The translations under genes and the position numbers were made by a program. Positions 15,552 to 62,833 of a stretch of 64,000 bases of DNA are shown one piece after another (positions within the stretch are counted from its first letter, which is position 1; every line of letters begins with the position of its first letter). This DNA is from an uncultured Bacteroidales bacterium (GTDB lineage: Bacteria > Bacteroidota > Bacteroidia > Bacteroidales > UBA932), in contig UQWT01000003.1 of NCBI GenBank assembly GCA_900544815.1, positions 157-64,156 on the forward strand, read 5' to 3'. The notes under the pieces were generated by a model that made no database searches, was not told the DNA's origin, and worked only from the letters and a program-made list of their open reading frames with translations.

Positions 15552-16055
15552 ATGGCAAAAAGGGTACTATCCATCATATTCCTCGTAGTATCTGTGGCAT
15601 TGTTGTCTTGCAATGTACAGAAACCGGTAAACGGTTCTGCCTTTATTGCCTTCAGCCCGGCCAAAGGGTGGTATAAAAATACCTCTTTAGTGTTCAAATT
15701 AGACGCAGCAGAAACAGATTACCCAAGCCGTAGTCTTGTATTTACGCTACAATTAGTTGAAACATACAGCTACAAGGAGGATGACACACTATATTTTGCG
15801 CTTACGTTCCATAGTCCGGATAACAATCTTTATTCAGACACATTAAAAGTTCCCGCATTAATGGCAGACAAAAGCGTTAAACAGAGAAGGAGCAATGGAA
15901 TCATAGAGATGGAGATTCCGTATGCCACCAACATAAAGAATATGGAGTGCGGAGGCTGGGAGATAAAGATAGACAAATGCAAGACCATAAGTAATAGAAA
16001 ATTATACAAATATATAGCCGGCTTAGGGGCATACATAATAGAATATGGGATATGA
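15552..16055 (+). CDS. gldH: GldH-like lipoprotein
   Basis: Lipoprotein signal (VALLSC); about 167 aa. It occupies the holB-PSP1-gldH gene order I recall as conserved in Bacteroidota. Sequence similarity was judged from memory only. Confidence 0.5.
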   Translation: MAKRVLSIIFLVVSVALLSCNVQKPVNGSAFIAFSPAKGWYKNTSLVFKLDAAETDYPSRSLVFTLQLVETYSYKEDDTLYFALTFHSPDNNLYSDTLKVPALMADKSVKQRRSNGIIEMEIPYATNIKNMECGGWEIKIDKCKTISNRKLYKYIAGLGAYIIEYGI

Positions 16056-26722: not shown

Positions 26723-29722
26723 ATGAAAAGAGATCTATTCTTGCTACGCAGCATAGCAGTCTGTATGCTCGTCAGTACCTTTACAATCACATTGCAAGCC
26801 CAATCGGGCTTTGTACAGGACGGAGAAAAACAACGTCCTTCAACCGATTCATGGAACATGGTCAAATACGGAGAGGTTGGAGCGAGCCTCTATACCGGAA
26901 CAATACAGCTCAACATCCCATTCTATGAATACAAAGACAGTGACTTTACCATCCCTGTATCATTGGCTTACAGCAGTAACGGCCTGCAGCCCAACAAGAG
27001 AGGCGGAGTGTTAGGACCGGACTGGACATTGATGGCAGGCGGCAACATATCCATTGATTCGCAAGGATTGCCGGATCTGCAGGATGTTGACAACGAATGT
27101 AACAGTTACTACAGTCTGTACCGAAACGTGTCACAAATACCATCCACCTCCAAAATATGGAGATTGGGAGCATCATTATCAAATTTAGTGTCCGTTGGCG
27201 CTTACCCTGCCTCTTTGATACACTGCTTTGGTGGCACTCCAGACAATTATATAATGATGTACGATGCCATGCCGGATCTTTTTCATTTCAATTTTCTTGG
27301 TCATACGGGCAACTTCCATTTGGGAGTCAATAAAAAGGTTTACGTGTACAATACCGGAGGCAACAACAAAGACTACAGGATAAGTTTCAAGGAGGGGAGC
27401 ACAGAAGATGTCTTTGGCATAATCATAGAGACGGCAGACGGCTACAAATATGAATTTATAGAAGAGGAGACCTCCCAATCGCGAGACAGTGAAACAGGCA
27501 AACCTCTCACAGTTGCATATCATCTCAGTACCATAACGGCCCCCAACGGCAGAAAGGTTGAATATGTCTACCGCAATTATGATATCAGTGTAAGGGTGCC
27601 GGCAGGAATAGCCATAAGCGGCACACAGTACATGATCATCTGGGACGGAGGCATCCAAGAGGTAGAGTTTCATGGCAAGAACTTGGAACACCAGATAGTT
27701 ACAATAGACCAGAACATACCTGTGATAAGTCAGATAAAGATAGACGGCGGTACTGTTATCTCTTTCAACTACACACAACAGCCTGTTGAAGAGAGTGATG
27801 AGTACGGAGAGATGAACTTGTCTGCATCCTCTGCCATACGCTATAAACAGAGTGTTCGTATGACCGGTATCACCGTAAAGACAAACAACAAGACCGTCAA
27901 ACAGTGCGGATTCTCTTACAAGAAGATGACAAACGGCAAAAGGGTAAGCTATTTGGAAGAGGTAAATATTTTTGGAGAGGGTACTTATAAGATGACCTAC
28001 AACACGGCAGCCGGCTTCCCCGGCAACGGTACACTCAGTGTAGACCATTGGGGCTACTACAACGGCAAGAACGATGGCAACTCAACCAATATACCTTTCC
28101 TTAAGGTGTGTAAAAATGGCGAAAGCAGTGAGACTATAAATCAATCGACCAGAGATGCGATAAGCGCCAAAGCCATGACAGGCATACTCACAAAGATTAC
28201 CTACCCCAGCGGAGGTTACAGCAGTTTTGAGTATGAAGGTAATGACTATTCCAGAGTTTTCATGAGAGACTCTCTCAACCAATATGAAGGAAGCTACAGA
28301 ACACAATCGGGACTGTGCGGAGGGGTAAGGATAAAGCGGATAACCCACTATGACAAAGCAGGAGTATCATTGGGCGGCAGCAGTTACAGCTACAAAACAG
28401 GCAACACAAGCAACGGCACACTGCTCAATTATCCAAGATACCATATCAAGTACACTGCACAGGCACGGGTCACTCCAATGCTAACGGAGAACATAGACTA
28501 TTACTCCTCCTCGCTTGCAAACTACAACGGTTCTCATATTGAGTATTCCACTGTCTACGAGACTAAAAGTGATGGCAGTATCGTCAAGTACACATTCTCA
28601 TCGTCAGATTCCGCCGACTATGCGGATTTTCTTGAAAGACAGAATACGTACGATGAACCATACGCATTTGAAACTGTTGGGGCTTGGCGAAGAGATAATG
28701 CAGATATAACCTCAATAGTACAGCCTGCAGTGTCAAGACACGGAGACAGAGGCAAACTCCTGCAAAAGAGCATATACAAGAGTTCTTCCGAGAGTACTCC
28801 GGCATTGACGGAACAGTATACCTACAATACCGCAAGAGAGCTGTCTAAGGACTACTGTCCTGCATACCTTATAAGAAAAATCTCTACTGTTCCAACCTTT
28901 GTGGACAACTACGAACTTAAAGGAAGAAAATTAAAGGAAAAGAGAGGAGGCTCAAATGTAGAGAAAGAGGTGACATATTGCTACAACAGCCGTGGTCAGA
29001 TAATAACAGCAACAAGCACAGGCAGTGAAGAACACATATACATAGACAAGAACACCTTCGTTACAGACCTTACAGACTCTGAGGTAAACGCATCGGAGGC
29101 TTACCGCTTTATGAAAAGACGGTTTGATATAAACAGACCACTTGCTATTGAGCATTACATAGGTACAGGTTTTGGAGATTCAACATTGGTAGGCGGAGTG
29201 CGAACCGTTTACGGATTGAAGACAACCTCATCGGACACCCTGTTGGTAAAAAACAGAGTTGAGAAGTATGACATGGTGAGTGGTAAGTGGCATATTAAAG
29301 AGACTTATCTGAAATATGACAACAGAGGCAGATTGTTGGAAATGGAGGATATCAACGGCATAAAGACAAGTTTTGTGTGGGGATATGGTGGGCTATATCC
29401 TGTTTTGCAGGGAAGAAACATAAGCATCAATTCACTGAAAGGTATAAGCGGATTACAGGGGATAGAGAGCACTCCGCTCGAAGGATGCCTGAGCGAACAA
29501 CAGCGCACGGCTATCAAGGCACTTTGCACAAACAGCAACGCAGAGGTTGAGTATTACGAGTATCTTCCTTTAGTTGGCATAAGCAAGTTGATTGATGCCA
29601 CGGGAAAGATATACACCTACGAGTACAACAACGGAGGCAAACTGAAGAGGATTGTGGACAATGAGGGCAAGAGTGTGGAGGGAGGTTATTATTCTCCCGA
29701 CAATAAACTACCTAATTTATAG
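26723..29722 (+). CDS. secreted YD-repeat protein with an SpvB/TcdB-like N-terminal motif; no RHS core and no toxin domain
   Basis: Signal peptide (AVCMLVSTFTITLQAQS). TGTIQLNIPFYEYKDSDFTIPVSLAYSSNGLQPNKRGGVLGPDWTLMAGGNISID resembles the N-terminal SpvB/TcB-type motif. YD-like repeats are present: YCYNSRGQIITAT, YLKYDNRGRLLEMEDINGIKT, YTYEYNNGGKLKRIVDNEGKSVEG. It ends without a DPxG-type core. Confidence 0.7.
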   Translation: MKRDLFLLRSIAVCMLVSTFTITLQAQSGFVQDGEKQRPSTDSWNMVKYGEVGASLYTGTIQLNIPFYEYKDSDFTIPVSLAYSSNGLQPNKRGGVLGPDWTLMAGGNISIDSQGLPDLQDVDNECNSYYSLYRNVSQIPSTSKIWRLGASLSNLVSVGAYPASLIHCFGGTPDNYIMMYDAMPDLFHFNFLGHTGNFHLGVNKKVYVYNTGGNNKDYRISFKEGSTEDVFGIIIETADGYKYEFIEEETSQSRDSETGKPLTVAYHLSTITAPNGRKVEYVYRNYDISVRVPAGIAISGTQYMIIWDGGIQEVEFHGKNLEHQIVTIDQNIPVISQIKIDGGTVISFNYTQQPVEESDEYGEMNLSASSAIRYKQSVRMTGITVKTNNKTVKQCGFSYKKMTNGKRVSYLEEVNIFGEGTYKMTYNTAAGFPGNGTLSVDHWGYYNGKNDGNSTNIPFLKVCKNGESSETINQSTRDAISAKAMTGILTKITYPSGGYSSFEYEGNDYSRVFMRDSLNQYEGSYRTQSGLCGGVRIKRITHYDKAGVSLGGSSYSYKTGNTSNGTLLNYPRYHIKYTAQARVTPMLTENIDYYSSSLANYNGSHIEYSTVYETKSDGSIVKYTFSSSDSADYADFLERQNTYDEPYAFETVGAWRRDNADITSIVQPAVSRHGDRGKLLQKSIYKSSSESTPALTEQYTYNTARELSKDYCPAYLIRKISTVPTFVDNYELKGRKLKEKRGGSNVEKEVTYCYNSRGQIITATSTGSEEHIYIDKNTFVTDLTDSEVNASEAYRFMKRRFDINRPLAIEHYIGTGFGDSTLVGGVRTVYGLKTTSSDTLLVKNRVEKYDMVSGKWHIKETYLKYDNRGRLLEMEDINGIKTSFVWGYGGLYPVLQGRNISINSLKGISGLQGIESTPLEGCLSEQQRTAIKALCTNSNAEVEYYEYLPLVGISKLIDATGKIYTYEYNNGGKLKRIVDNEGKSVEGGYYSPDNKLPNL

Positions 29723-30288: not shown

Positions 30289-33200
30289 ATGAACACAGAT
30301 ATACAACACAGAAATCACAGAGACTGTAGCTGCAGAAGCAGGGGTAGCAGTCATTTATCATCATATTTGCCAAAAGCATTTTGGCCGGTATTCGCTTTCA
30401 TGACAGTATTTATCGGGCTGTCGTTTACGGCTGGTGCAGCCGATACCATAAGGGTGAACATCCCGCGTGTTACAGTGACAATGGCAAGAAGCTACAACTT
30501 TACCAGTGCTGCCAACTCTGTATATGTTCCCGTGGAGTTCAACTCTGCAATGAGCGCAGACAAGGTGGCAGATTACATTGAGGAGAGCAACGCATTCCTC
30601 TTTGACCATTTTGGAGATGATGTAGCGGAGATAAGCGGAGTGTCGGATGACCTTGGTACCATCTACTTGGATATCAAACCAAACACAGGAATAAAACGTG
30701 TCCTCCTCATCACAAGCACAGGCAGCGGCAGCAAGGTCATAACGGTGGTGCAAGCAGGTGACACCCCGGAGCCCGAGCCGGAACCAGAACCTGAGCCGGA
30801 CGAGAAGTTCAACATCCCCGGCAACTGGAAGATGGTGCGCCACTATACGGACGAGACAGGCAATAACTACATAACGGACATCACCTTCTATGACGGCTTG
30901 GGATATCCCTCACAGATAGTCAACGTAGGGGCATCCCCTACAGGGAACAGGAACATCGTTACCCCTATAGTCTATGACAGGATGAGAAGAAGCGATTCTG
31001 TCCTCTTCCTGCCGTATGCCTCGGCTACTGTCAATACCATAAAGGAGGAGAGTGCGCCTCTGCAGGGACAAAGCTCTTTCTACGGTACTATGTTCGGCAC
31101 AGGCGAGAGCAGCTATGCCAAGACAAGAAGGGTATATGAACCATCAGAGTTGAACAGGGTATCCCGGGAGTATAAGCCGGGAAGCGCATACACAAGCAGG
31201 CATGTCTCCTACAGCTATGAGACTAACAGTGCAAACGAGGTCGTTAATATGTCGGCCGGTAGCTTCAATGGTGCATTGTTTGTAAACAGCGCTTATCCGT
31301 TCTATGATGCAGGCAAGCTCTTTAAGGATGTGGCAACAGACGAGGACGGGAACACATTAACCACCTATACAGATGTCACAGGAAAAGTGATAATGGAGAA
31401 GAGAGGAACGGATAACATGACCTATTATGCCTATGACGACAGAGGATTTCTCTCTTGGGTGATAACTCCTGCCGGAAGTGCTGTGTTGTCATCTTGCGCC
31501 AAAGATATAATAACAAGCACAAATAATTATACATTCGCCAGAGGTATAACAAGCTCATTTGCGGCAGAGCACTGCTATGTATATATTCGCGACTATATGG
31601 GCAATATAATAGAGAAAAACATTCCCGGAGCCGGAATCAGTGAATATGTCTATGACAAAGGTGGAAGGCTTGTACTTGAGAGAGATGCCAACCTTAAAGG
31701 GAAGAACAGATGGATCTATCATGTCTATGATAACATAGGACGGGAGATAGAGTGTAATCTTGTGCAGGGTACGGCATCGGTGACAAGAGTTTCGGCACAG
31801 ACAAACTATAACAATCTTTCCATCAATAACAGTTATCCTCAGCTCGGAGGAGGAACACCCGATACCCCTCCGTCTGCTATAGGGAGCTTTACCCTTATAT
31901 GCAAGCTCTCTCAGACTCGGTTCGGAGGTGGGGTATATCGCACCGCATCCTCCACTCAGACCTCATCATTTACTGTTCCTTCCTATCTTGCCTTTTCACC
32001 TGTAAGCGGTGTGGCAGAGAGTGCAGATTTGGATAATATGAAGGTGATCGGTTACAAACTCTATGAGAAAATTGCCCTGCTCGATGGCAATACTGAGACA
32101 AGCGGTGGTAATGCCAACTTTATAGAGAGGGCATTCTATTATGACAGGAAAGGAAGGGTGATGCAGGTGGTGGAGAAGAACTCTACGGGAGGTATAAGCA
32201 GGACAAGCACCAAGTATGATTTTAGGGGAAACATCCTTGCAGTGAACGAGAGTCACTCGGCAGGCAGTCTTACAATAACAAAAGGAACGGTATACAGCTA
32301 TGACCAAAGGGGAAGGCTGCTTAGCGAGAGGGTATCTGTAGACGGAGTGGAGAAAGCAACGGTAAACTACAGTTATGATGCTCTTGGCAATCTTACGGGA
32401 AAGAGCTATGGCAATGGTGTGACAGACAATCTGCAGTACAATATTCAGGGATGGGGTACGGTATCACAGACAGTCAAGGGGAGTGAGACGCTGTACAGCC
32501 AGAAGCTGGGCTACTATGATGCAGAGAAAGGTAGCGGATTGTATAACGGTAACATCTCCGAGTGGAGGGTGCAACAGGGAACAAATGCTGCAAGCACATA
32601 CAGGTACAGCTATGACGGATTGGGCAGGCTCACGGAGAGTTCAAGATATGCGGGAAGCGGTACAAGTACAACAAACAGTTGGTGCGAGAGGGGAATAGAT
32701 TATGATCTTAACGGAAATATTGTTACCTTGCAGAGGTTTGGCAGCAATAGCATTACGGCAGAGGATGATCTGAGTTACAGTTATACAGGCAACAGGCTCA
32801 CAGCCCTTACAGGCAGCAGCGAGGGGGCTGAGCTGAATGCTTCATACAGCTATGATGCAGGTGGTAACATGCTCTATGACGGCAGAAGAGGATTGGGTAT
32901 AAGTTACAACATCCTTAATCTGCCGGCAAAGGTGGTGGAAAAGACAGGTGCTACGGCAGCAGACGGTGCGGTCAAGGCTGAGTATCTCTACAGTGTGGAT
33001 GGAATCAAGCAGAGGGTTGTAGACGGGGCAAGCAGTAATGGTTATCTCTATCTTGGAACATTGGTACTCTCAAAGAGCGGAGAGAGCTACTCATTGGCAA
33101 GTACAGGGTTCGGTGGAGGAAGGATTATAGGTGGAGCAGGAAACAGTTGTTTGGCATATTACTACGGTACGGATCACTTGGGTAGCGTGAGGGTGATAAC

Positions 33201-34059
33201 GGACGGCAGCGGCAGTGTAGTGGAGAGGAACGACTACTACCCTATGGGTATGAGAACAACCACAGGCAATAGTTACCCACAATTGACAACCAACCTCTAC
33301 AAGTACAACGGCAAGGAGGTTCAGACGCTTGGAGGCATTGGCTTCACAGACTACGGCGCGAGGATGTACGATGACTTCACCGGACGGTGGTTTGTTCCGG
33401 ATCCGTTGGCAGAGAAATACGCCTCAATGTCTCCTTATATGTACTGCGGAGGGAATCCGATAAATGTTATTGACATAGATGGAAGAGATGCAATTTATAT
33501 TGCTTTCCCAAAGTACAGAGCTAACGGTATTCCATTTACAGGACATGCAGGTGTATTGTTGATTGACAATAAAACAGGGCTGACAAAATATTATGAATAT
33601 GGAAGATACAATGGAAGTCGCATTGGTAAAGTAAGGCCGGTAACCATTCCCAATGTAGTCATAGGAAAAGACGGCAAACCCACCTTAAAAAGTCTTAACA
33701 GGGTTCTTAAGCAACTTTCAGATATATCTGGAGACCACGGTGATATAGAAGGGGCTTATATCATAAGTGACAAGTTCAAAGAGATGAATGATTATGCTAA
33801 AAATAAAATGAAAGAAAATGACGACCCCAAAAGAAAGAAATATTCAATAATAAACAACAACTGTGCAACTTTTGCCGAAGATGTTATTACACAAGATAAA
33901 AGTGTTGATAAACCTTTCACAATAATCAAAAGTCCTGTTAATATTGTTAGCGAATATCAAGAGAAAGGCAATGCAAGAGTTCAATATAAGGCAAAAACTC
34001 AAACCACCACAATAGAAGAGGGTGATGAAAATGATGCAAAAATTAATTTTAGAAATTAG
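30289..34059 (+). CDS. RHS repeat-associated core domain protein (polymorphic toxin) with an unassigned C-terminal toxin domain
   Basis: N-terminal hydrophobic segment, a (PE)5 linker and the FYDGLGYPSQIV..IVYDRMRR region typical of Bacteroidota RHS N-termini. Many YD repeats: YYDRKGRVMQVV, YSYDQRGRLLSE, YSYDALGNLTGK, YSYDGLGRLTES. RHS core: GTDHLGSVRVITDGSGSVVERNDYYPMGM...YKYNGKE...YGARMYDDFTGRWFVPDPLAEKY..SPYMYCGGNPINVIDIDGRD. About 190 further residues follow. Confidence 0.9.
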   Translation: MNTDIQHRNHRDCSCRSRGSSHLSSYLPKAFWPVFAFMTVFIGLSFTAGAADTIRVNIPRVTVTMARSYNFTSAANSVYVPVEFNSAMSADKVADYIEESNAFLFDHFGDDVAEISGVSDDLGTIYLDIKPNTGIKRVLLITSTGSGSKVITVVQAGDTPEPEPEPEPEPDEKFNIPGNWKMVRHYTDETGNNYITDITFYDGLGYPSQIVNVGASPTGNRNIVTPIVYDRMRRSDSVLFLPYASATVNTIKEESAPLQGQSSFYGTMFGTGESSYAKTRRVYEPSELNRVSREYKPGSAYTSRHVSYSYETNSANEVVNMSAGSFNGALFVNSAYPFYDAGKLFKDVATDEDGNTLTTYTDVTGKVIMEKRGTDNMTYYAYDDRGFLSWVITPAGSAVLSSCAKDIITSTNNYTFARGITSSFAAEHCYVYIRDYMGNIIEKNIPGAGISEYVYDKGGRLVLERDANLKGKNRWIYHVYDNIGREIECNLVQGTASVTRVSAQTNYNNLSINNSYPQLGGGTPDTPPSAIGSFTLICKLSQTRFGGGVYRTASSTQTSSFTVPSYLAFSPVSGVAESADLDNMKVIGYKLYEKIALLDGNTETSGGNANFIERAFYYDRKGRVMQVVEKNSTGGISRTSTKYDFRGNILAVNESHSAGSLTITKGTVYSYDQRGRLLSERVSVDGVEKATVNYSYDALGNLTGKSYGNGVTDNLQYNIQGWGTVSQTVKGSETLYSQKLGYYDAEKGSGLYNGNISEWRVQQGTNAASTYRYSYDGLGRLTESSRYAGSGTSTTNSWCERGIDYDLNGNIVTLQRFGSNSITAEDDLSYSYTGNRLTALTGSSEGAELNASYSYDAGGNMLYDGRRGLGISYNILNLPAKVVEKTGATAADGAVKAEYLYSVDGIKQRVVDGASSNGYLYLGTLVLSKSGESYSLASTGFGGGRIIGGAGNSCLAYYYGTDHLGSVRVITDGSGSVVERNDYYPMGMRTTTGNSYPQLTTNLYKYNGKEVQTLGGIGFTDYGARMYDDFTGRWFVPDPLAEKYASMSPYMYCGGNPINVIDIDGRDAIYIAFPKYRANGIPFTGHAGVLLIDNKTGLTKYYEYGRYNGSRIGKVRPVTIPNVVIGKDGKPTLKSLNRVLKQLSDISGDHGDIEGAYIISDKFKEMNDYAKNKMKENDDPKRKKYSIINNNCATFAEDVITQDKSVDKPFTIIKSPVNIVSEYQEKGNARVQYKAKTQTTTIEEGDENDAKINFRN

Positions 34060-34061
34060 AT

Positions 34062-34478
34062 ATGAAGATTAAATTATTACGTTTATTATTGTATCCTGTT
34101 GCTGTGGTAATTATTTGTATAATATTACTCTTTATATGGTTAATTCTGCCATATGACAGGGAATGGGAAAAGCCTGAAAATGTTCCGGATTCAGCAGTTT
34201 GGGTAGGTGGTTGTGATGGTGGAAACTGGATAGAATTGGTGGATTTTAAAGAGGATACTATAAGATTTAGACTTTATAGAGATTGTAATGGGGATTTATT
34301 ATTGGATGCAGATTTTGTTTATCAGAAAAAAGATGATATACGTCTTACAAGAACAAATTGGGATAAATATCTCGACTTTTTTGATGGAGAATCAATTGCT
34401 ACTAATATTATCAGAGATAACCGCTATTGCCACCTAATTCCGGTTTTCCCAGCCTATTACCAAGAAACAATAGAATAG
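34062..34478 (+). CDS. candidate cognate immunity protein (membrane-anchored)
   Basis: Starts 2 nt after the RHS stop. 138 aa with an N-terminal TM/signal anchor (LLLYPVAVVIICIILLFIWLIL). Very AT-rich (~25% GC in sampled 60-mers). The call rests on position and size, not on homology. Confidence 0.55.
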   Translation: MKIKLLRLLLYPVAVVIICIILLFIWLILPYDREWEKPENVPDSAVWVGGCDGGNWIELVDFKEDTIRFRLYRDCNGDLLLDADFVYQKKDDIRLTRTNWDKYLDFFDGESIATNIIRDNRYCHLIPVFPAYYQETIE

Positions 34479-34641: not shown

Positions 34642-35067
34642 ATGAGGACATTGTTATTATTATTTATTGCAAGTATGCTTATTGGGTGTTCTGTTATGAA
34701 TAACAATTCTCTTTGCAGAGAAGACAAATCAAATAGGGCAACTCTGTTTAAAATCAAATCCATACAGGATAAGGGGAAGTTTTATATTATCTATGCAAAA
34801 AGAAATGATTCCCTGTTTAAGATTCTTAGTGACCCTAAAGTGAAAGCTAATGGTGAAAAAATTAAAGTTAATCATTATTATAAACTTGAGTTGAAGAAAA
34901 TTTTTCCACGTGATTCTATATTTGGTATAGCAATAGCTCCTAATGCGGGTATAGTAGGTTTTGATTATGGAGGAAAAACAATTTATAAAGAAAAAAAATC
35001 ACACAATAAAGTGTATAGAGCTAAAAACTTAAAGGGATTGTATCTTGATAATGACCTAAATAGGTAA
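34642..35067 (+). CDS. small lipoprotein, possible second/orphan immunity protein
   Basis: Lipoprotein signal LFIASMLIGCS; 141 aa; AT-rich. The sequence just before its ATG (aaattagatatgagga) resembles the RHS-stop/immunity-start junction (aaattagatatgaaga). Confidence 0.45.
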   Translation: MRTLLLLFIASMLIGCSVMNNNSLCREDKSNRATLFKIKSIQDKGKFYIIYAKRNDSLFKILSDPKVKANGEKIKVNHYYKLELKKIFPRDSIFGIAIAPNAGIVGFDYGGKTIYKEKKSHNKVYRAKNLKGLYLDNDLNR

Positions 35068-55070: not shown

Positions 55071-56705
55071 TTATTCTGCATCTCTTACACAACGAAGTTG
55101 AGCACCGTTATTTACGCTGTTGTTTGCCAATGTAACCCTGCCCTCCGGATATTTGGCCATAGTGTATGTTGTCATAAGACCGAACATAGAGATACCTGTT
55201 AACTTACCATCTTTTTCTGTATGAGTTGCGTATGTAGATGTAAGATAATATGTCATTGCAGCCTGTCCAACTATGTTTGTAAGTGACGTGTTACCACTCC
55301 ATAACTGTGTATTCATATATTGACCTGCTGCAGCGAAATTAGTTTTACTTCTTGCTCCTGTTCTTACAAAGTTCCAACCTGCAGCATCAAAAGAGGCAAC
55401 CTTGCCACCATCATATACAGCATCATAGAATAGAGCATCCTCCTTCTTTACAGGGGCAGAATCATCCTTACCTTTATTAGAGTAGCCGCATAGAGCCAAA
55501 TAGTCTGCACGGGTTGGAATATGCCAACCTTTAGGGCAGATACCCTGTACGCCCTCAAAAGATTTCATATTATTTGCATTTACCTCCTTAACGTTTGCAG
55601 CAGCATAAAAGTCATACAGATAACCGTATTTCTCAACAGACGCATCATCTGTAAGAGCCTTAACATCATTTGCCTTTATTGCAGCAGGAGCTCCTTCATT
55701 AACGAATGTGTACGGATACCAGATATGAGACTCCTCTTTAGGATCTGCACTTACTGTATATCCTTTTGGAGCATATCTCATTGGCTGAGCCATCCAGATC
55801 TGACCGTTAGACAACTTCACAGTGTTGTATTTAACACCGTCATACATAAAGTAGTTCTCGTTCAAATGCTCCTCAAATGCCGGAGAATCATCACCGGGAA
55901 TATCGCCTTTATCGTCCCAATCCTCTATCTCACCACTCAATTTAATCTCAAGCCCGCTCTTGGTTACAAGTGCGTTGATATTATATCTTCCACCGGCAAC
56001 AATCTCTGTTGAAGCAAGTTTTTGAACTAATTCAAGGCCTGATTTAGTTGTTACCACCAACTCAATCGCAGCGGTCTGAGGAACTATGATTGCCTGATAT
56101 GCGCTGTTCGCTGTAACCTCCATTGCTGTGATATTAGATGCTGCAGCCGAGCCTACAGATACAGAAAGGTTTGTAAGGTCTACATTTGCTGTAGGGACAA
56201 GTCCTTTTAATACAACAGATGATATATCTGAACCTGATTCGTTCTTAATCTTGAACACTACCTTTGAAAGCAGATGCTTGAAAACCATTGTAACAGCATT
56301 TTCTGATGGCTTAATATTTTCTTGCACTGCACCCATAAGGTCTGACGCAGTAAAGCCATTTGCAAAGTTCTGGTCTGCCGCAACAGTAAATGTTGTTGGC
56401 ACCCCTGTAGAACTATATGGATAATACGCAACAAACTTAGATGCAGCTTCGCTGTCTGAATACCATACAACATCACCTGTAAATACGTTATTAGCAAAAG
56501 TCATCTCTGCATTTGTTACATAATTTTCGGTTCCTTTGATTATGGAGAGACCTACTTTGTCTCCATTTTCAAAGTTTACATCTGTAGCCTTAGTGATAAT
56601 AGGGTCTATAGATACCTTTTGATTAGAATAGTCCGGGGCATCATTGTTTTTTTCACAAGCTGCCAATGCGGCAAGCGCCACCATGGAAAGTAAAAATTTT
56701 TTCAT
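55071..56705 (-). CDS. lipoprotein with a fimbrillin-like N-terminal region and a C-terminal FISUMP (Fibrobacter succinogenes major paralogous) domain
   Basis: Lipobox LAALAACE. The N-terminal beta-rich region resembles the Bacteroidales fimbrillin family. The C-terminal GQIWMAQPMRY...YGYLYDF...ICPKGWHIPTRADYLAL matches the FISUMP motif. Confidence 0.6.
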   Translation of the reverse strand: MKKFLLSMVALAALAACEKNNDAPDYSNQKVSIDPIITKATDVNFENGDKVGLSIIKGTENYVTNAEMTFANNVFTGDVVWYSDSEAASKFVAYYPYSSTGVPTTFTVAADQNFANGFTASDLMGAVQENIKPSENAVTMVFKHLLSKVVFKIKNESGSDISSVVLKGLVPTANVDLTNLSVSVGSAAASNITAMEVTANSAYQAIIVPQTAAIELVVTTKSGLELVQKLASTEIVAGGRYNINALVTKSGLEIKLSGEIEDWDDKGDIPGDDSPAFEEHLNENYFMYDGVKYNTVKLSNGQIWMAQPMRYAPKGYTVSADPKEESHIWYPYTFVNEGAPAAIKANDVKALTDDASVEKYGYLYDFYAAANVKEVNANNMKSFEGVQGICPKGWHIPTRADYLALCGYSNKGKDDSAPVKKEDALFYDAVYDGGKVASFDAAGWNFVRTGARSKTNFAAAGQYMNTQLWSGNTSLTNIVGQAAMTYYLTSTYATHTEKDGKLTGISMFGLMTTYTMAKYPEGRVTLANNSVNNGAQLRCVRDAE

Positions 56706-61912: not shown

Positions 61913-62833
61913 TTATTCAATGATTTTCTCTATTGGATCATACCCACGGCTGCTACTAACCGAAGCATCATTCACATTCACGGTTATCTTAGACTTTCTA
62001 ATCTCGGCAGGAGTAAGTTCTCTGCCTGTACTTGCATCAAACACCTTGACCGTTGCACCTCCCGAAGCAGTGATATAGCCAACAGGATCCTCAATATAGC
62101 GCTTGTATGTTTTGATAAATTTTTCAAATGATGTCTTTACATACTTTTTATTTGTAAACTCTATAGGCTTTCTACACTCCTGAATACCGTCCAATTCCCA
62201 TGAATAGTGTCCCTGCCTATCCGCAACTTTTAATATCAGTCCCGGAAGCCCTCTGAATTTCCATGGCCCCGCATTCACCGGGACATCCGGAGCAAACCAT
62301 GCAATATAATCCCTACCTCTAAAACTGCAGGTTGCCATATTACATTCATATCCGGCAATATTCTTTACGGAATCCTGCACAACAATCCAATTGAAATCCG
62401 GAATCTTCTCTATGTAAGATATATTGTCTACACCCACTTTGGTTACCTCACAGAGGTTATCTCCCTGTGTGTACATATAAGATTGCGTACCGGTCTTGTA
62501 TTTGGAAATAGCCGCAACTTTGGCATTTACATCCATGTTAGATTTAGAGAGAGCCTTAAAGACAGAATCCCTTACCATCTCTAATTTACTTATATAACTT
62601 GTTGCATTACGGCCTATAAGCAGCAACATCTCGTCGTCAGTGACCTTGTCTTTGTCTAATGTATCTTTTAAATACCAATATTTATATGAACACTCCAAAA
62701 AGGCATTGTCCATTTGGCCTGTGGCAAACTCTTTGCTATTGTTGTTCTGTGCTCCCAAAACATTGCTTAAAGCAATGGCAGATAATTGCAATACAACTAT
62801 CCGCAGAATCTTTTTAAATGCAGTCATAATCAT
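61913..62833 (-). CDS. GLPGLI family protein
   Basis: Contains the eponymous motif FRGLPGLILKV; signal peptide; 306 aa. It is adjacent to the OM barrel gene, as is typical for this family. Confidence 0.8.
   Translation of the reverse strand: MIMTAFKKILRIVVLQLSAIALSNVLGAQNNNSKEFATGQMDNAFLECSYKYWYLKDTLDKDKVTDDEMLLLIGRNATSYISKLEMVRDSVFKALSKSNMDVNAKVAAISKYKTGTQSYMYTQGDNLCEVTKVGVDNISYIEKIPDFNWIVVQDSVKNIAGYECNMATCSFRGRDYIAWFAPDVPVNAGPWKFRGLPGLILKVADRQGHYSWELDGIQECRKPIEFTNKKYVKTSFEKFIKTYKRYIEDPVGYITASGGATVKVFDASTGRELTPAEIRKSKITVNVNDASVSSSRGYDPIEKIIE

What the first reader, a model, noticed from the sequence alone, without database searches (positions are those of the whole stretch)
33484..34059. 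Unassigned ~190-aa toxin domain after the RHS core, with His...Cys spacing suggestive of a permuted papain-like (PPPDE/LRAT-like) hydrolase
After the autoproteolysis-type core end (GGNPINVIDIDGRD, D at 33472) comes AIYIAFPKYRANGIPFTGHAGVLLIDNKTGLTKYYEYGRY....KKYSIINNNCATFAEDVITQD.... I recognise no standard nuclease, deaminase or ADP-ribosyltransferase motifs.

GHAGVLLID..YYEYG (His codon at 33544) followed ~105 residues later by NNNCATFAEDV (Cys codon at 33862) resembles the His-then-Cys order of PPPDE/DeSI and LRAT-type permuted papain-fold enzymes, including the NNC-x-x-F context. Both downstream candidate immunity proteins are extracytoplasmic (a membrane anchor and a lipoprotein). That fits a periplasm-acting peptidase or amidase better than a cytoplasmic nuclease. 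This is pattern recognition from memory, not a search result.
Basis: inference. Interest (0 to 1): 0.7.

Follow-up and report, generated by a model that had tools for sequence, protein, structure and literature searches.

The report
TseH-family cysteine hydrolase toxin on RHS
The ~190-residue tail of this RHS protein belongs to the already described TseH family of cell-envelope-attacking cysteine hydrolase toxins and sits next to its matching immunity gene, so it is an ordinary new example of a known bacterial weapon.

Summary

The domain is not unassigned. It matches Pfam PF25218 (TseH-like) at E=2e-28, 99.8 bits against a cut-off of 27. It matches the Vibrio cholerae TseH crystal structure 6V98 at E=1e-23. 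An AlphaFold model (pLDDT 92) superposes on 6V98 with TM 0.82/0.86.

His1086, Glu1103 and Cys1192 align with the TseH triad His64/Glu81/Cys172. They are invariant in the ~120 closest homologues and kept in 84-85 of 86 related ORFs.

TseH is described as a papain-like NlpC/P60 cysteine hydrolase with His before Cys. It is toxic only in the periplasm. PPPDE and LRAT membership is not met.

ORF 34062..34478 is the cognate immunity. Homologues lie directly downstream of the toxin in 40 of 80 related loci, and one bridging sequence links the family to TsiH. The second ORF (34642..35067) has no such support.

TseH homologues annotated as Rhs/YD-repeat proteins, including Bacteroidetes ones, were noted in 2015. 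Low novelty.

The parts
26723..29722 (+). 999-aa secreted protein with an RHS repeat at its C-end. It corresponds to the N-terminal half of single-chain ~2100-aa RHS proteins found elsewhere.
   Evidence: The signal-peptide-like N-terminus is visible. Pfam RHS_repeat hits residues 957-982. The protein is collinear with residues 3-1119 of one 2125-aa ORF in L030, whose residues 1124-2125 match the window's RHS protein.
30289..34059 (+). RHS polymorphic toxin, 1256 aa. It has a signal-like N-terminus, DUF6443, an RHS/YD shell, the RHS core end and a TseH-like toxin domain.
   Evidence: The identical gene in public assemblies already carries precomputed PF20041 and PF25218 hits.
30847..31221 (+). 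DUF6443 domain (residues 187-311).
   Evidence: Pfam PF20041, E=8.4e-25, 88 bits against a cut-off of 27.8.
33235..33483 (+). RHS repeat-associated core end (residues 983-1065), ending NPINVIDIDGR. This is the presumed autoproteolysis site that releases the toxin.
   Evidence: NCBIfam TIGR03696, 50.4 bits against a cut-off of 32.5. The family profile also hits TcC/YenC2 core ends in the PDB. Cleavage itself is inferred from the TcC/RHS literature.
33484..34059 (+). TseH-family cysteine hydrolase toxin domain (residues 1066-1256) plus the stop codon.
   Evidence: Pfam PF25218, E=2e-28. PDB 6v98, E=1.1e-23. AF2 model pLDDT 92.2. Foldseek against 6v98 gives TM 0.82/0.86, E=4.8e-16. GC falls from 47-51% in the shell to 30-39% here.
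33544..33546 (+). His1086 codon, the catalytic His (equivalent to TseH His64).
   Evidence: Alignment. 116/116 conserved and 84/86.
33595..33597 (+). Glu1103 codon, the third triad residue (equivalent to TseH Glu81).
   Evidence: Alignment. 119/119 conserved and 85/86. The triad is named.
33862..33864 (+). Cys1192 codon, the nucleophile (equivalent to TseH Cys172). It sits at the N-terminus of helix 127-135 of the domain.
   Evidence: Alignment. 121/121 conserved and 84/86.
34062..34478 (+). Cognate immunity protein, 138 aa. It has an N-terminal membrane anchor and a beta-rich periplasmic domain, and is TsiH-like. Its start lies 2 nt after the toxin stop.
   Evidence: Homologues lie directly downstream on the same strand in 40 of 80 related loci. 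AF2 gives pLDDT 87, helix 2-28 and then 7 strands. The link to V. cholerae TsiH runs through P0328.

Best explanation
The last 191 residues of the RHS protein are a TseH-family toxin. This is a papain-like (NlpC/P60-superfamily) cysteine hydrolase with His before Cys in the sequence. Cys1192 is the nucleophile, His1086 the general base and Glu1103 the residue that orients the His.

The domain is carried as the variable tip of an RHS shell. It is probably cut free behind the ...DIDGR core end (inferred). Once delivered into the periplasm of a competing Gram-negative cell it damages the cell envelope. The most likely reaction is cleavage of peptidoglycan peptide stems or cross-links, leading to lysis (inferred from TseH).

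The producer is protected by the product of the translationally coupled next gene (34062..34478). This is a membrane-anchored protein whose beta-rich domain faces the periplasm. It belongs to the same family as V. cholerae TsiH, although the link is distant.

What is shown here: family membership, fold, triad conservation and conserved toxin-immunity linkage. What is inferred: periplasmic site of action, substrate, autoproteolytic release and delivery route. The route is not a linked T6SS, because no T6SS genes were found in the window.
For: - Pfam PF25218 TseH: E=2e-28, 99.8 bits against a cut-off of 27.
- PDB 6v98: E=1.1e-23, with H/E/C aligned in register. The family profile gives E=8e-39.
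- AF2 model pLDDT 92.2. 6v98 is the only significant Foldseek match, TM 0.82/0.86.
- The triad is invariant in 116-121 homologues at 50-82% identity. It is kept in 84-85 of 86 ORFs down to 39% identity across Bacteroidota, Myxococcota and Proteobacteria.
- For TseH: toxic only in the periplasm, neutralised by TsiH, lyses permeabilised cells (PMC4453574). It is called an NlpC/P60 family cysteine endopeptidase with an essential Glu/His/Cys.
- imm1 homologues lie immediately downstream in 40 of 80 loci. The imm1 family has 742 representative clusters.
- TsiH has the same architecture. It hits family member P0328 at E=2.9e-6. P0328 itself sits directly downstream of a TseH-like RHS tip.
- The GC drop at the toxin-immunity cassette fits an exchangeable RHS tip.
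Against: - The exact reaction of TseH is unsettled. One paper says the purified protein is inactive in vitro, with a loop that may block the pocket. Another calls its activity 'enigmatic'. 'Peptidoglycan endopeptidase' is therefore a borrowed and not fully proven label.
- Direct profile comparison of the imm1 family with TsiH is weak (hhalign probability 11%). The homology rests on one bridging sequence.
- No T6SS, PAAR or VgrG gene was found among about 43 ORFs scanned in the 64-kb window. Delivery is therefore unknown.
- The RHS shell is split into two genes here and is fragmented in one strain (L083). Activity of this particular copy is not guaranteed.
Confidence: 0.8

Rival explanations
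1. The fold and triad are as above, but the substrate is not peptidoglycan. The enzyme would act on a membrane-associated acyl substrate such as a phospholipid, a lipoprotein acyl chain or a lipid-linked precursor. Other His-before-Cys NlpC/P60 relatives work this way.
For: - TseH is reported inactive in vitro and its activity is called enigmatic.
- LRAT/PLAAT enzymes are acyltransferases or phospholipases (established knowledge).
- In 19 of 80 related loci the toxin is followed by a ~105-aa protein made almost entirely of three TM helices. That is an odd inhibitor for a soluble wall hydrolase.
- The immunity protein here is itself membrane-anchored.
Against: - TseH causes cell bursting and lysis of permeabilised cells.
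- Later literature treats it as a wall-targeting endopeptidase.
- No Pfam LRAT hit at E<=1.
- The window's immunity has a sizeable soluble beta domain, typical of active-site-capping inhibitors.
Confidence: 0.14
2. The domain is a true member of the PPPDE/DeSI (Peptidase_C97) or LRAT families, as the first reader named them. It would act as an isopeptidase or acyltransferase of those families.
For: - A weak local similarity exists around the Cys helix. Peptidase_C97 gives E=0.017 for the domain alone and E=0.0011 for the L087 homologue. PDB PPPDE1/2 give E~0.6.
- The His-then-Cys order is the same.
Against: - All these scores are below Pfam's cut-off (15-19 bits against 29.2) and cover only ~30 residues.
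- No LRAT hit.
- Foldseek finds no PPPDE or LRAT structure among its top 50 matches.
- A far stronger full-length match to TseH exists.
Confidence: 0.02
3. The locus is a decaying or undeployed RHS remnant. The toxin domain is intact in sequence but is no longer delivered.
For: - The shell is encoded by two genes separated by 566 bp, whereas L030 has one 2125-aa ORF.
- One strain has the RHS broken into three ORFs.
- No secretion-system genes were found nearby.
Against: - Both window ORFs are long and uninterrupted, and each starts with its own signal-like sequence.
- Three other assemblies keep a product of 1250-1259 aa.
- The triad and the immunity gene are intact.
- Two-protein shells are functional in Tc toxins (TcB/TcC; established knowledge).
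Confidence: 0.1

Closest known systems
Vibrio cholerae T6SS effector TseH (VCA0285; PDB 6V98; Pfam PF25218) with immunity TsiH (VCA0286)
   Same: - Same domain family, 34% identity in the structural alignment, TM 0.82/0.86.
- The same Glu-His-Cys triad, in register.
- An immunity gene lies immediately downstream with the same build (N-terminal TM anchor plus a ~90-100-aa beta domain). It is distantly linked by sequence through P0328.
   Different: - TseH is a free-standing 223-aa protein encoded after a PAAR gene and fired by a T6SS.
- Here the domain is the C-terminal tip of a 1256-aa Bacteroidales RHS protein with DUF6443 and a signal-like N-terminus. There is no PAAR, VgrG or T6SS gene in 64 kb.
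- The immunity is 138 aa and carries a P..A.W.GGCDGG.W motif that TsiH lacks.
Rhs/YD-repeat proteins carrying TseH-like C-termini (noted by Altindis et al. 2015, mBio, PMC4453574)
   Same: That paper reports that a large number of TseH BLAST homologues are annotated as Rhs or YD-repeat proteins, with homologues in Bacteroidetes and Proteobacteria. This scan found 160 species-level loci, including full-length RHS proteins and short orphan tips.
   Different: None of these RHS-borne copies appears to have been tested experimentally in the papers found. This copy has a split shell.
Tc toxin TcB/TcC and other RHS cocoons (e.g. PDB 4O9X, 4IGL)
   Same: The RHS core end preceding the toxin matches TcC/YenC2 core ends. 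The cargo sits at the C-terminus after the core. The shell is encoded by two consecutive genes, as for TcB and TcC.
   Different: The cargo is an envelope-targeting cysteine hydrolase rather than an ADP-ribosyltransferase. There is no TcA-like translocator nearby. Autoproteolysis was not tested.
PPPDE/DeSI (Peptidase_C97) and LRAT/PLAAT permuted papain-like enzymes
   Same: His precedes Cys. Cys lies at a helix N-terminus in an N-C-x-x-F-like context. There is sub-threshold local similarity to PPPDE.
   Different: Below every family threshold. No structural match was retrieved. The third residue is a Glu on the strand next to the His.

Membership tests
TseH-like effector domain (Pfam PF25218) | Score above the curated Pfam gathering threshold | tested here: met
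   99.8 bits against a cut-off of 27, E=2e-28. Profile positions 33-160 of 167 are covered.
TseH-like effector domain (Pfam PF25218) | Same three-dimensional fold as the TseH crystal structure 6V98 | tested here: met
   The AF2 model (pLDDT 92.2) against 6v98 gives TM 0.82/0.86, rmsd 2.5 A over 184 columns, E=4.8e-16. It is the only significant PDB match.
TseH-like effector domain (Pfam PF25218) | Glu-His-Cys catalytic triad (TseH Glu81/His64/Cys172) present and conserved | tested here: met
   Glu1103, His1086 and Cys1192 align in register (triad named). They are invariant in 116-121 homologues and kept in 84-85 of 86 ORFs. Side-chain geometry in the model was not measured.
TseH-like effector domain (Pfam PF25218) | Cognate TsiH-type immunity gene immediately downstream | tested here: inconclusive
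   A conserved downstream gene is present in 40 of 80 loci and has the same architecture as TsiH. Direct profile comparison with TsiH gives only 11% probability. TsiH hits family member P0328 at E=2.9e-6, and P0328 is itself next to a TseH-like gene.
TseH-like effector domain (Pfam PF25218) | Periplasm-specific toxicity neutralised by the immunity protein | not testable with these tools
   Shown for V. cholerae TseH/TsiH only.
T6SS effector (delivery class) | Genetic linkage to PAAR/VgrG/Hcp or a T6SS cluster, or a PAAR domain in the protein | tested here: not met
   There is no PAAR domain in the 1256-aa protein. No T6SS family was found among about 43 ORFs scanned across the window. The rest of the genome was not available.
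RHS/YD polymorphic toxin | RHS repeats, an RHS-associated core end, a variable C-terminal toxin and a downstream immunity gene | tested here: met
   RHS_repeat 42.9 bits. TIGR03696 50.4 bits against 32.5, and YD_repeat_2x. GC drops at the tip. Immunity linkage is shown.
RHS/YD polymorphic toxin | Autoproteolytic release of the C-terminal toxin | not testable with these tools
   The motif NPINVIDIDGR is present. Cleavage is inferred from TcC/RHS structures.
PPPDE/DeSI (Peptidase_C97, PF05903) | Score above the Pfam gathering threshold, or similarity to PPPDE structures | tested here: not met
   15.4 bits against 29.2, and only residues 107-137 of the domain are covered. PDB 2wp7 and 3ebq give E~0.6. 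Both are absent from the top 50 Foldseek matches.
LRAT/PLAAT (PF04970) and canonical NlpC/P60 (PF00877) | Profile match; for canonical NlpC/P60, Cys before His | tested here: not met

The most novel reading that the evidence does not exclude
TseH-family toxins, including this one, are not peptidoglycan endopeptidases. They would attack a membrane-bound acyl substrate such as phospholipid, lipoprotein or a lipid-linked precursor.

Probability: 0.14. Interest if true: 0.55.

Novelty: new member of a known kind. Interest (0 to 1): 0.2.

Why it matters
For annotation, this turns an 'unknown RHS tip' into a named toxin-immunity pair with three testable catalytic residues.

More broadly, three by-products may be useful:
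- The immunity partner belongs to a large family (742 clusters at 50% identity). It has no Pfam model and no solved fold, and it appears to include V. cholerae TsiH.
- A second, fully membrane-embedded candidate immunity family accompanies a sister group of the same toxin.
- The TseH domain is mostly an RHS cargo in Bacteroidota rather than a T6SS-only effector.

Because the substrate of TseH is still unproven, an RHS-borne copy from a common Bacteroidales species is a second system in which to settle it. None of this is surprising to a specialist.

Tried and rejected
- NCBIfam gave nothing for the toxin domain or for either downstream ORF beyond noise.
- Foldseek of the toxin model against viral structures (BFVD) gave no significant match.
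- Foldseek of the immunity model against the PDB gave no match below E=0.6. The immunity family profile against PDB sequences gave nothing either.
- Direct hhalign of the imm1 family against TsiH gave 11% probability, in register but not significant. A larger profile against TsiH matched only the TM helix.
- The link to TsiH came only from phmmer/jackhmmer through P0328. It depends on that single sequence.
- I looked for a relation between the length of the toxin's C-terminal tail and the immunity type. No clean correlation emerged, so the idea was dropped.
- The Hersch et al. 2020 structure paper (PMC7190449) is not held. Its findings are cited second-hand.
- A literature search for DUF6443 found no paper.
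- The lipoprotein ORF 34642..35067 was considered as a second immunity and rejected for lack of any co-occurrence.
- PPPDE, LRAT and canonical NlpC/P60 membership were rejected on thresholds.

Full report
**1. The observation**

ORF 30289..34059 on the + strand encodes a 1256-aa protein. Pfam finds DUF6443 at residues 187-311 and RHS repeats. NCBIfam finds the RHS repeat-associated core at residues 983-1065.

The His codon (cat) is at 33544-33546, residue 1086. The Cys codon (tgt) is at 33862-33864, residue 1192. The D at 33472 is Asp1062 in ...NPINVIDIDGR, the local version of the RHS core-end motif.

The two downstream ORFs are as described. ORF 34062..34478 encodes 138 aa with an N-terminal hydrophobic helix. 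ORF 34642..35067 encodes 141 aa with an LIGC lipobox.

**2. What the domain is**

The domain is not unassigned.
- It matches Pfam PF25218, 'Type VI secretion system effector TseH-like', at E=2e-28 and 99.8 bits against a gathering cut-off of 27.
- A plain phmmer search of PDB sequences finds chain 6v98_A, V. cholerae TseH deposited as 'cysteine hydrolase', at E=1.1e-23.
- A profile of homologues raises that to E=8e-39.
- An AlphaFold2 model built on 44 sequences has mean pLDDT 92.2 and pTM 0.89.
- Foldseek against the PDB returns 6V98 as the only significant match, with TM 0.82/0.86, rmsd 2.5 A and E=4.8e-16.
- Nothing significant was found among viral structures.

**3. Catalytic residues**

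The literature gives the TseH triad as Glu81-His64-Cys172 (PMC11160734). These residues are reported as essential for activity (PMC11696984 citing Hersch et al. 2020).

The deposited chain index is offset by 20 from protein numbering. In the alignment, chain His44, Glu61 and Cys152 pair with domain residues His21, Glu38 and Cys127. In the full protein these are His1086, Glu1103 and Cys1192.

Conservation is strong.
- Among the best 120 of 365 homologous clusters (50-82% identity, all carrying PF25218), His is 116/116, Glu 119/119 and Cys 121/121.
- In 86 ORFs from 80 species-level loci reaching 39% identity, they are kept in 84, 85 and 84. The exceptions are mostly truncated ORFs.
- In the model, His opens strand 21-27, Glu lies on the neighbouring strand 34-42, and Cys opens helix 127-135. 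This is the papain-like arrangement with the His-bearing sheet before the Cys helix.

**4.

TseH is described as an NlpC/P60-family, papain-like cysteine endopeptidase. Canonical NlpC/P60 enzymes have Cys before His (established knowledge, Anantharaman and Aravind 2003). TseH and this domain have His before Cys, so 'permuted papain-like hydrolase' is a fair description.

- Peptidase_C97 (PPPDE) reaches only 15.4 bits against 29.2, over ~30 residues around the Cys.
- PDB PPPDE1/2 give E~0.6.
- LRAT and NlpC/P60 models do not appear at E<=1.
- Foldseek retrieved no such structure among its top 50 matches. The superfamily placement therefore rests on published descriptions of TseH, not on a test made here.

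**5. Site of action and mechanism**

Altindis et al. 2015 (PMC4453574) reported the following for TseH:
- It is harmless in the E. coli cytosol.
- It kills when sent to the periplasm.
- It is neutralised by the product of the next gene, TsiH.
- It makes cells burst.
- It lyses outer-membrane-permeabilised cells.

Later papers call it a wall-targeting endopeptidase. However, one reports that the purified protein is inactive in vitro, with a loop that may block substrate entry. Another calls its specific activity enigmatic.

I therefore commit to this model: a Cys1192/His1086/Glu1103 hydrolase that acts in the target periplasm on the cell envelope, most probably on peptidoglycan peptides. I put about 0.8 on the envelope-toxin model. 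Within it, I put roughly 0.55 on peptidoglycan specifically.

**6. Immunity**

The toxin stop (34057-34059) is followed two bases later by the ATG of ORF 34062..34478.
- Homologues of this ORF lie immediately downstream of the toxin, on the same strand, in 41 of 80 related loci by BLASTP and in 40 of 80 by profile search. These include proteobacterial and myxococcal loci.
- The family has no Pfam model.
- It has 742 representative clusters at E<=1e-3.
- It shows a conserved P..A.W.GGCDGG.W motif.
- Its AlphaFold model (pLDDT 87.4) is one TM helix (residues 2-28) followed by a seven-strand beta domain. That domain has no PDB fold match.

V. cholerae TsiH was read from locus L081 downstream of PAAR and TseH. 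It has the same build. Direct profile comparison is not significant (11%). However, TsiH hits one family member, P0328, at E=2.9e-6, with 32% identity over 56 residues of the beta domain. P0328 matches the window protein at E=6e-16. P0328 itself sits directly after a TseH-like RHS tip. Jackhmmer from TsiH then gathers all 203 family sequences.

I regard the pair as homologous to TseH-TsiH, with moderate confidence because a single sequence carries the link.

The second ORF, 34642..35067, has no homologue in any of the 80 loci. It is conserved only in strains of the same species. It is not supported as an immunity gene.

**7. Context and delivery**

GC content is 47-51% in the RHS shell and falls to 27-39% across the toxin, immunity and lipoprotein genes. 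This is typical of exchangeable RHS tips.

The domain occurs both on full-length RHS proteins (about 1180 to more than 2200 aa) and on short orphan tips of 200-330 aa. The scan found 160 species-level loci. They are mostly Bacteroidota, and the closest is Porphyromonas loveana at 82%.

Neither PAAR nor any T6SS family was found in the protein or among about 43 ORFs scanned across the 64-kb window. The neighbours are housekeeping genes: a sigma-54 activator, LptE, SecG, PspC and KdsB. Both the RHS protein and the 999-aa protein upstream begin with signal-like sequences. Sec export followed by an unknown surface or vesicle route is the best guess; this is inference.

**8. Comparison with what is known, and novelty**

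Altindis et al. wrote in 2015 that a large number of TseH homologues are annotated as Rhs/YD-repeat proteins, and that homologues occur in Bacteroidetes as well as Proteobacteria. The identical gene in public assemblies already carries a precomputed PF25218 hit.

This is therefore a new, untested member of a known kind. It differs from the type member in its carrier (RHS tip rather than a free PAAR-linked protein) and in the absence of a linked T6SS.

**9. The least conventional reading not excluded**

The family may act on a membrane-bound acyl substrate rather than on peptidoglycan. The points in favour are:
- the unresolved biochemistry;
- a sister group of these toxins paired with a ~105-aa protein of three TM helices in 19 of 80 loci.

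I give this about 0.14.

**10. Verdict**

Interest is low, about 0.2.

Noticed in passing
window 26723..29722 and 30289..34059; L030:165-6542: The 999-aa upstream protein and the 1256-aa RHS protein are collinear with a single 2125-aa ORF in a Bacteroidales MAG. Upstream residues 1-993 match ORF residues 3-1119, and RHS residues 179-1243 match residues 1124-2125. The shell is therefore split into two genes here, 566 bp apart. RHS residues 1-178 (own signal-like segment, PEPEPEPEPEP linker) have no counterpart in the fused form. This is reminiscent of TcB/TcC.
   Followed up: partly
L016, L018, L021, L023, L025, L029-L031, L033-L035, L039, L041, L043, L047, L053, L063, L074, L077 (gene directly after the toxin stop): In 19 of 80 related loci the TseH-like domain is followed by a conserved ~105-aa protein made of three TM helices, not by the TsiH-like gene. 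Its motifs are YLGSI.F..G and F.DIM.G....P...SE. It is a second, wholly membrane-embedded candidate immunity family for the same toxin family.
   Followed up: partly
L009:5248-6975 (Porphyromonas loveana DSM 28520): In the closest relative (82% identity) the toxin reading frame runs without a stop codon straight into the immunity ORF (...DAKVKKELAMRTKLLYLL...). This gives one 575-aa ORF. It could be a stop-codon loss, a sequencing error or a real fusion.
   Followed up: partly
window 34642..35067: This is a 141-aa lipoprotein (LIGC lipobox) in the low-GC cassette between the immunity gene and kdsB. It has no Pfam or NCBIfam match. It is conserved in strains of the same species (truncated to 90 aa in L084). 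It is absent from all 80 related toxin loci, and its role is unknown. It may be an orphan immunity gene left by an earlier RHS tip.
   Followed up: partly
L083:1-2998: One public assembly of the same species has the RHS gene broken into three ORFs (413+, 308 and 499 aa), while the immunity gene is identical. This suggests decay of the toxin with retention of immunity.
   Followed up: no
window 34062..34478 and its family (A2, A3): The immunity family is large (742 clusters at 50% identity; 221 at E<=1e-10). It has no Pfam model and no detectable PDB fold relative. It has nearly invariant W47, C51, G53, W75 and an invariant P42..A45..G49..D52.G54.W56 core. It appears to include V. cholerae TsiH only through a single bridging sequence, P0328.
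   Followed up: yes
window 15552..16055, 55071..56705 and 61913..62833: A GldH-like lipoprotein, an Mfa-like fimbrillin and a Porph_ging-family protein point to a Porphyromonas-like Bacteroidales genome with gliding/T9SS-type components. No T6SS gene was seen in the window.
   Followed up: no
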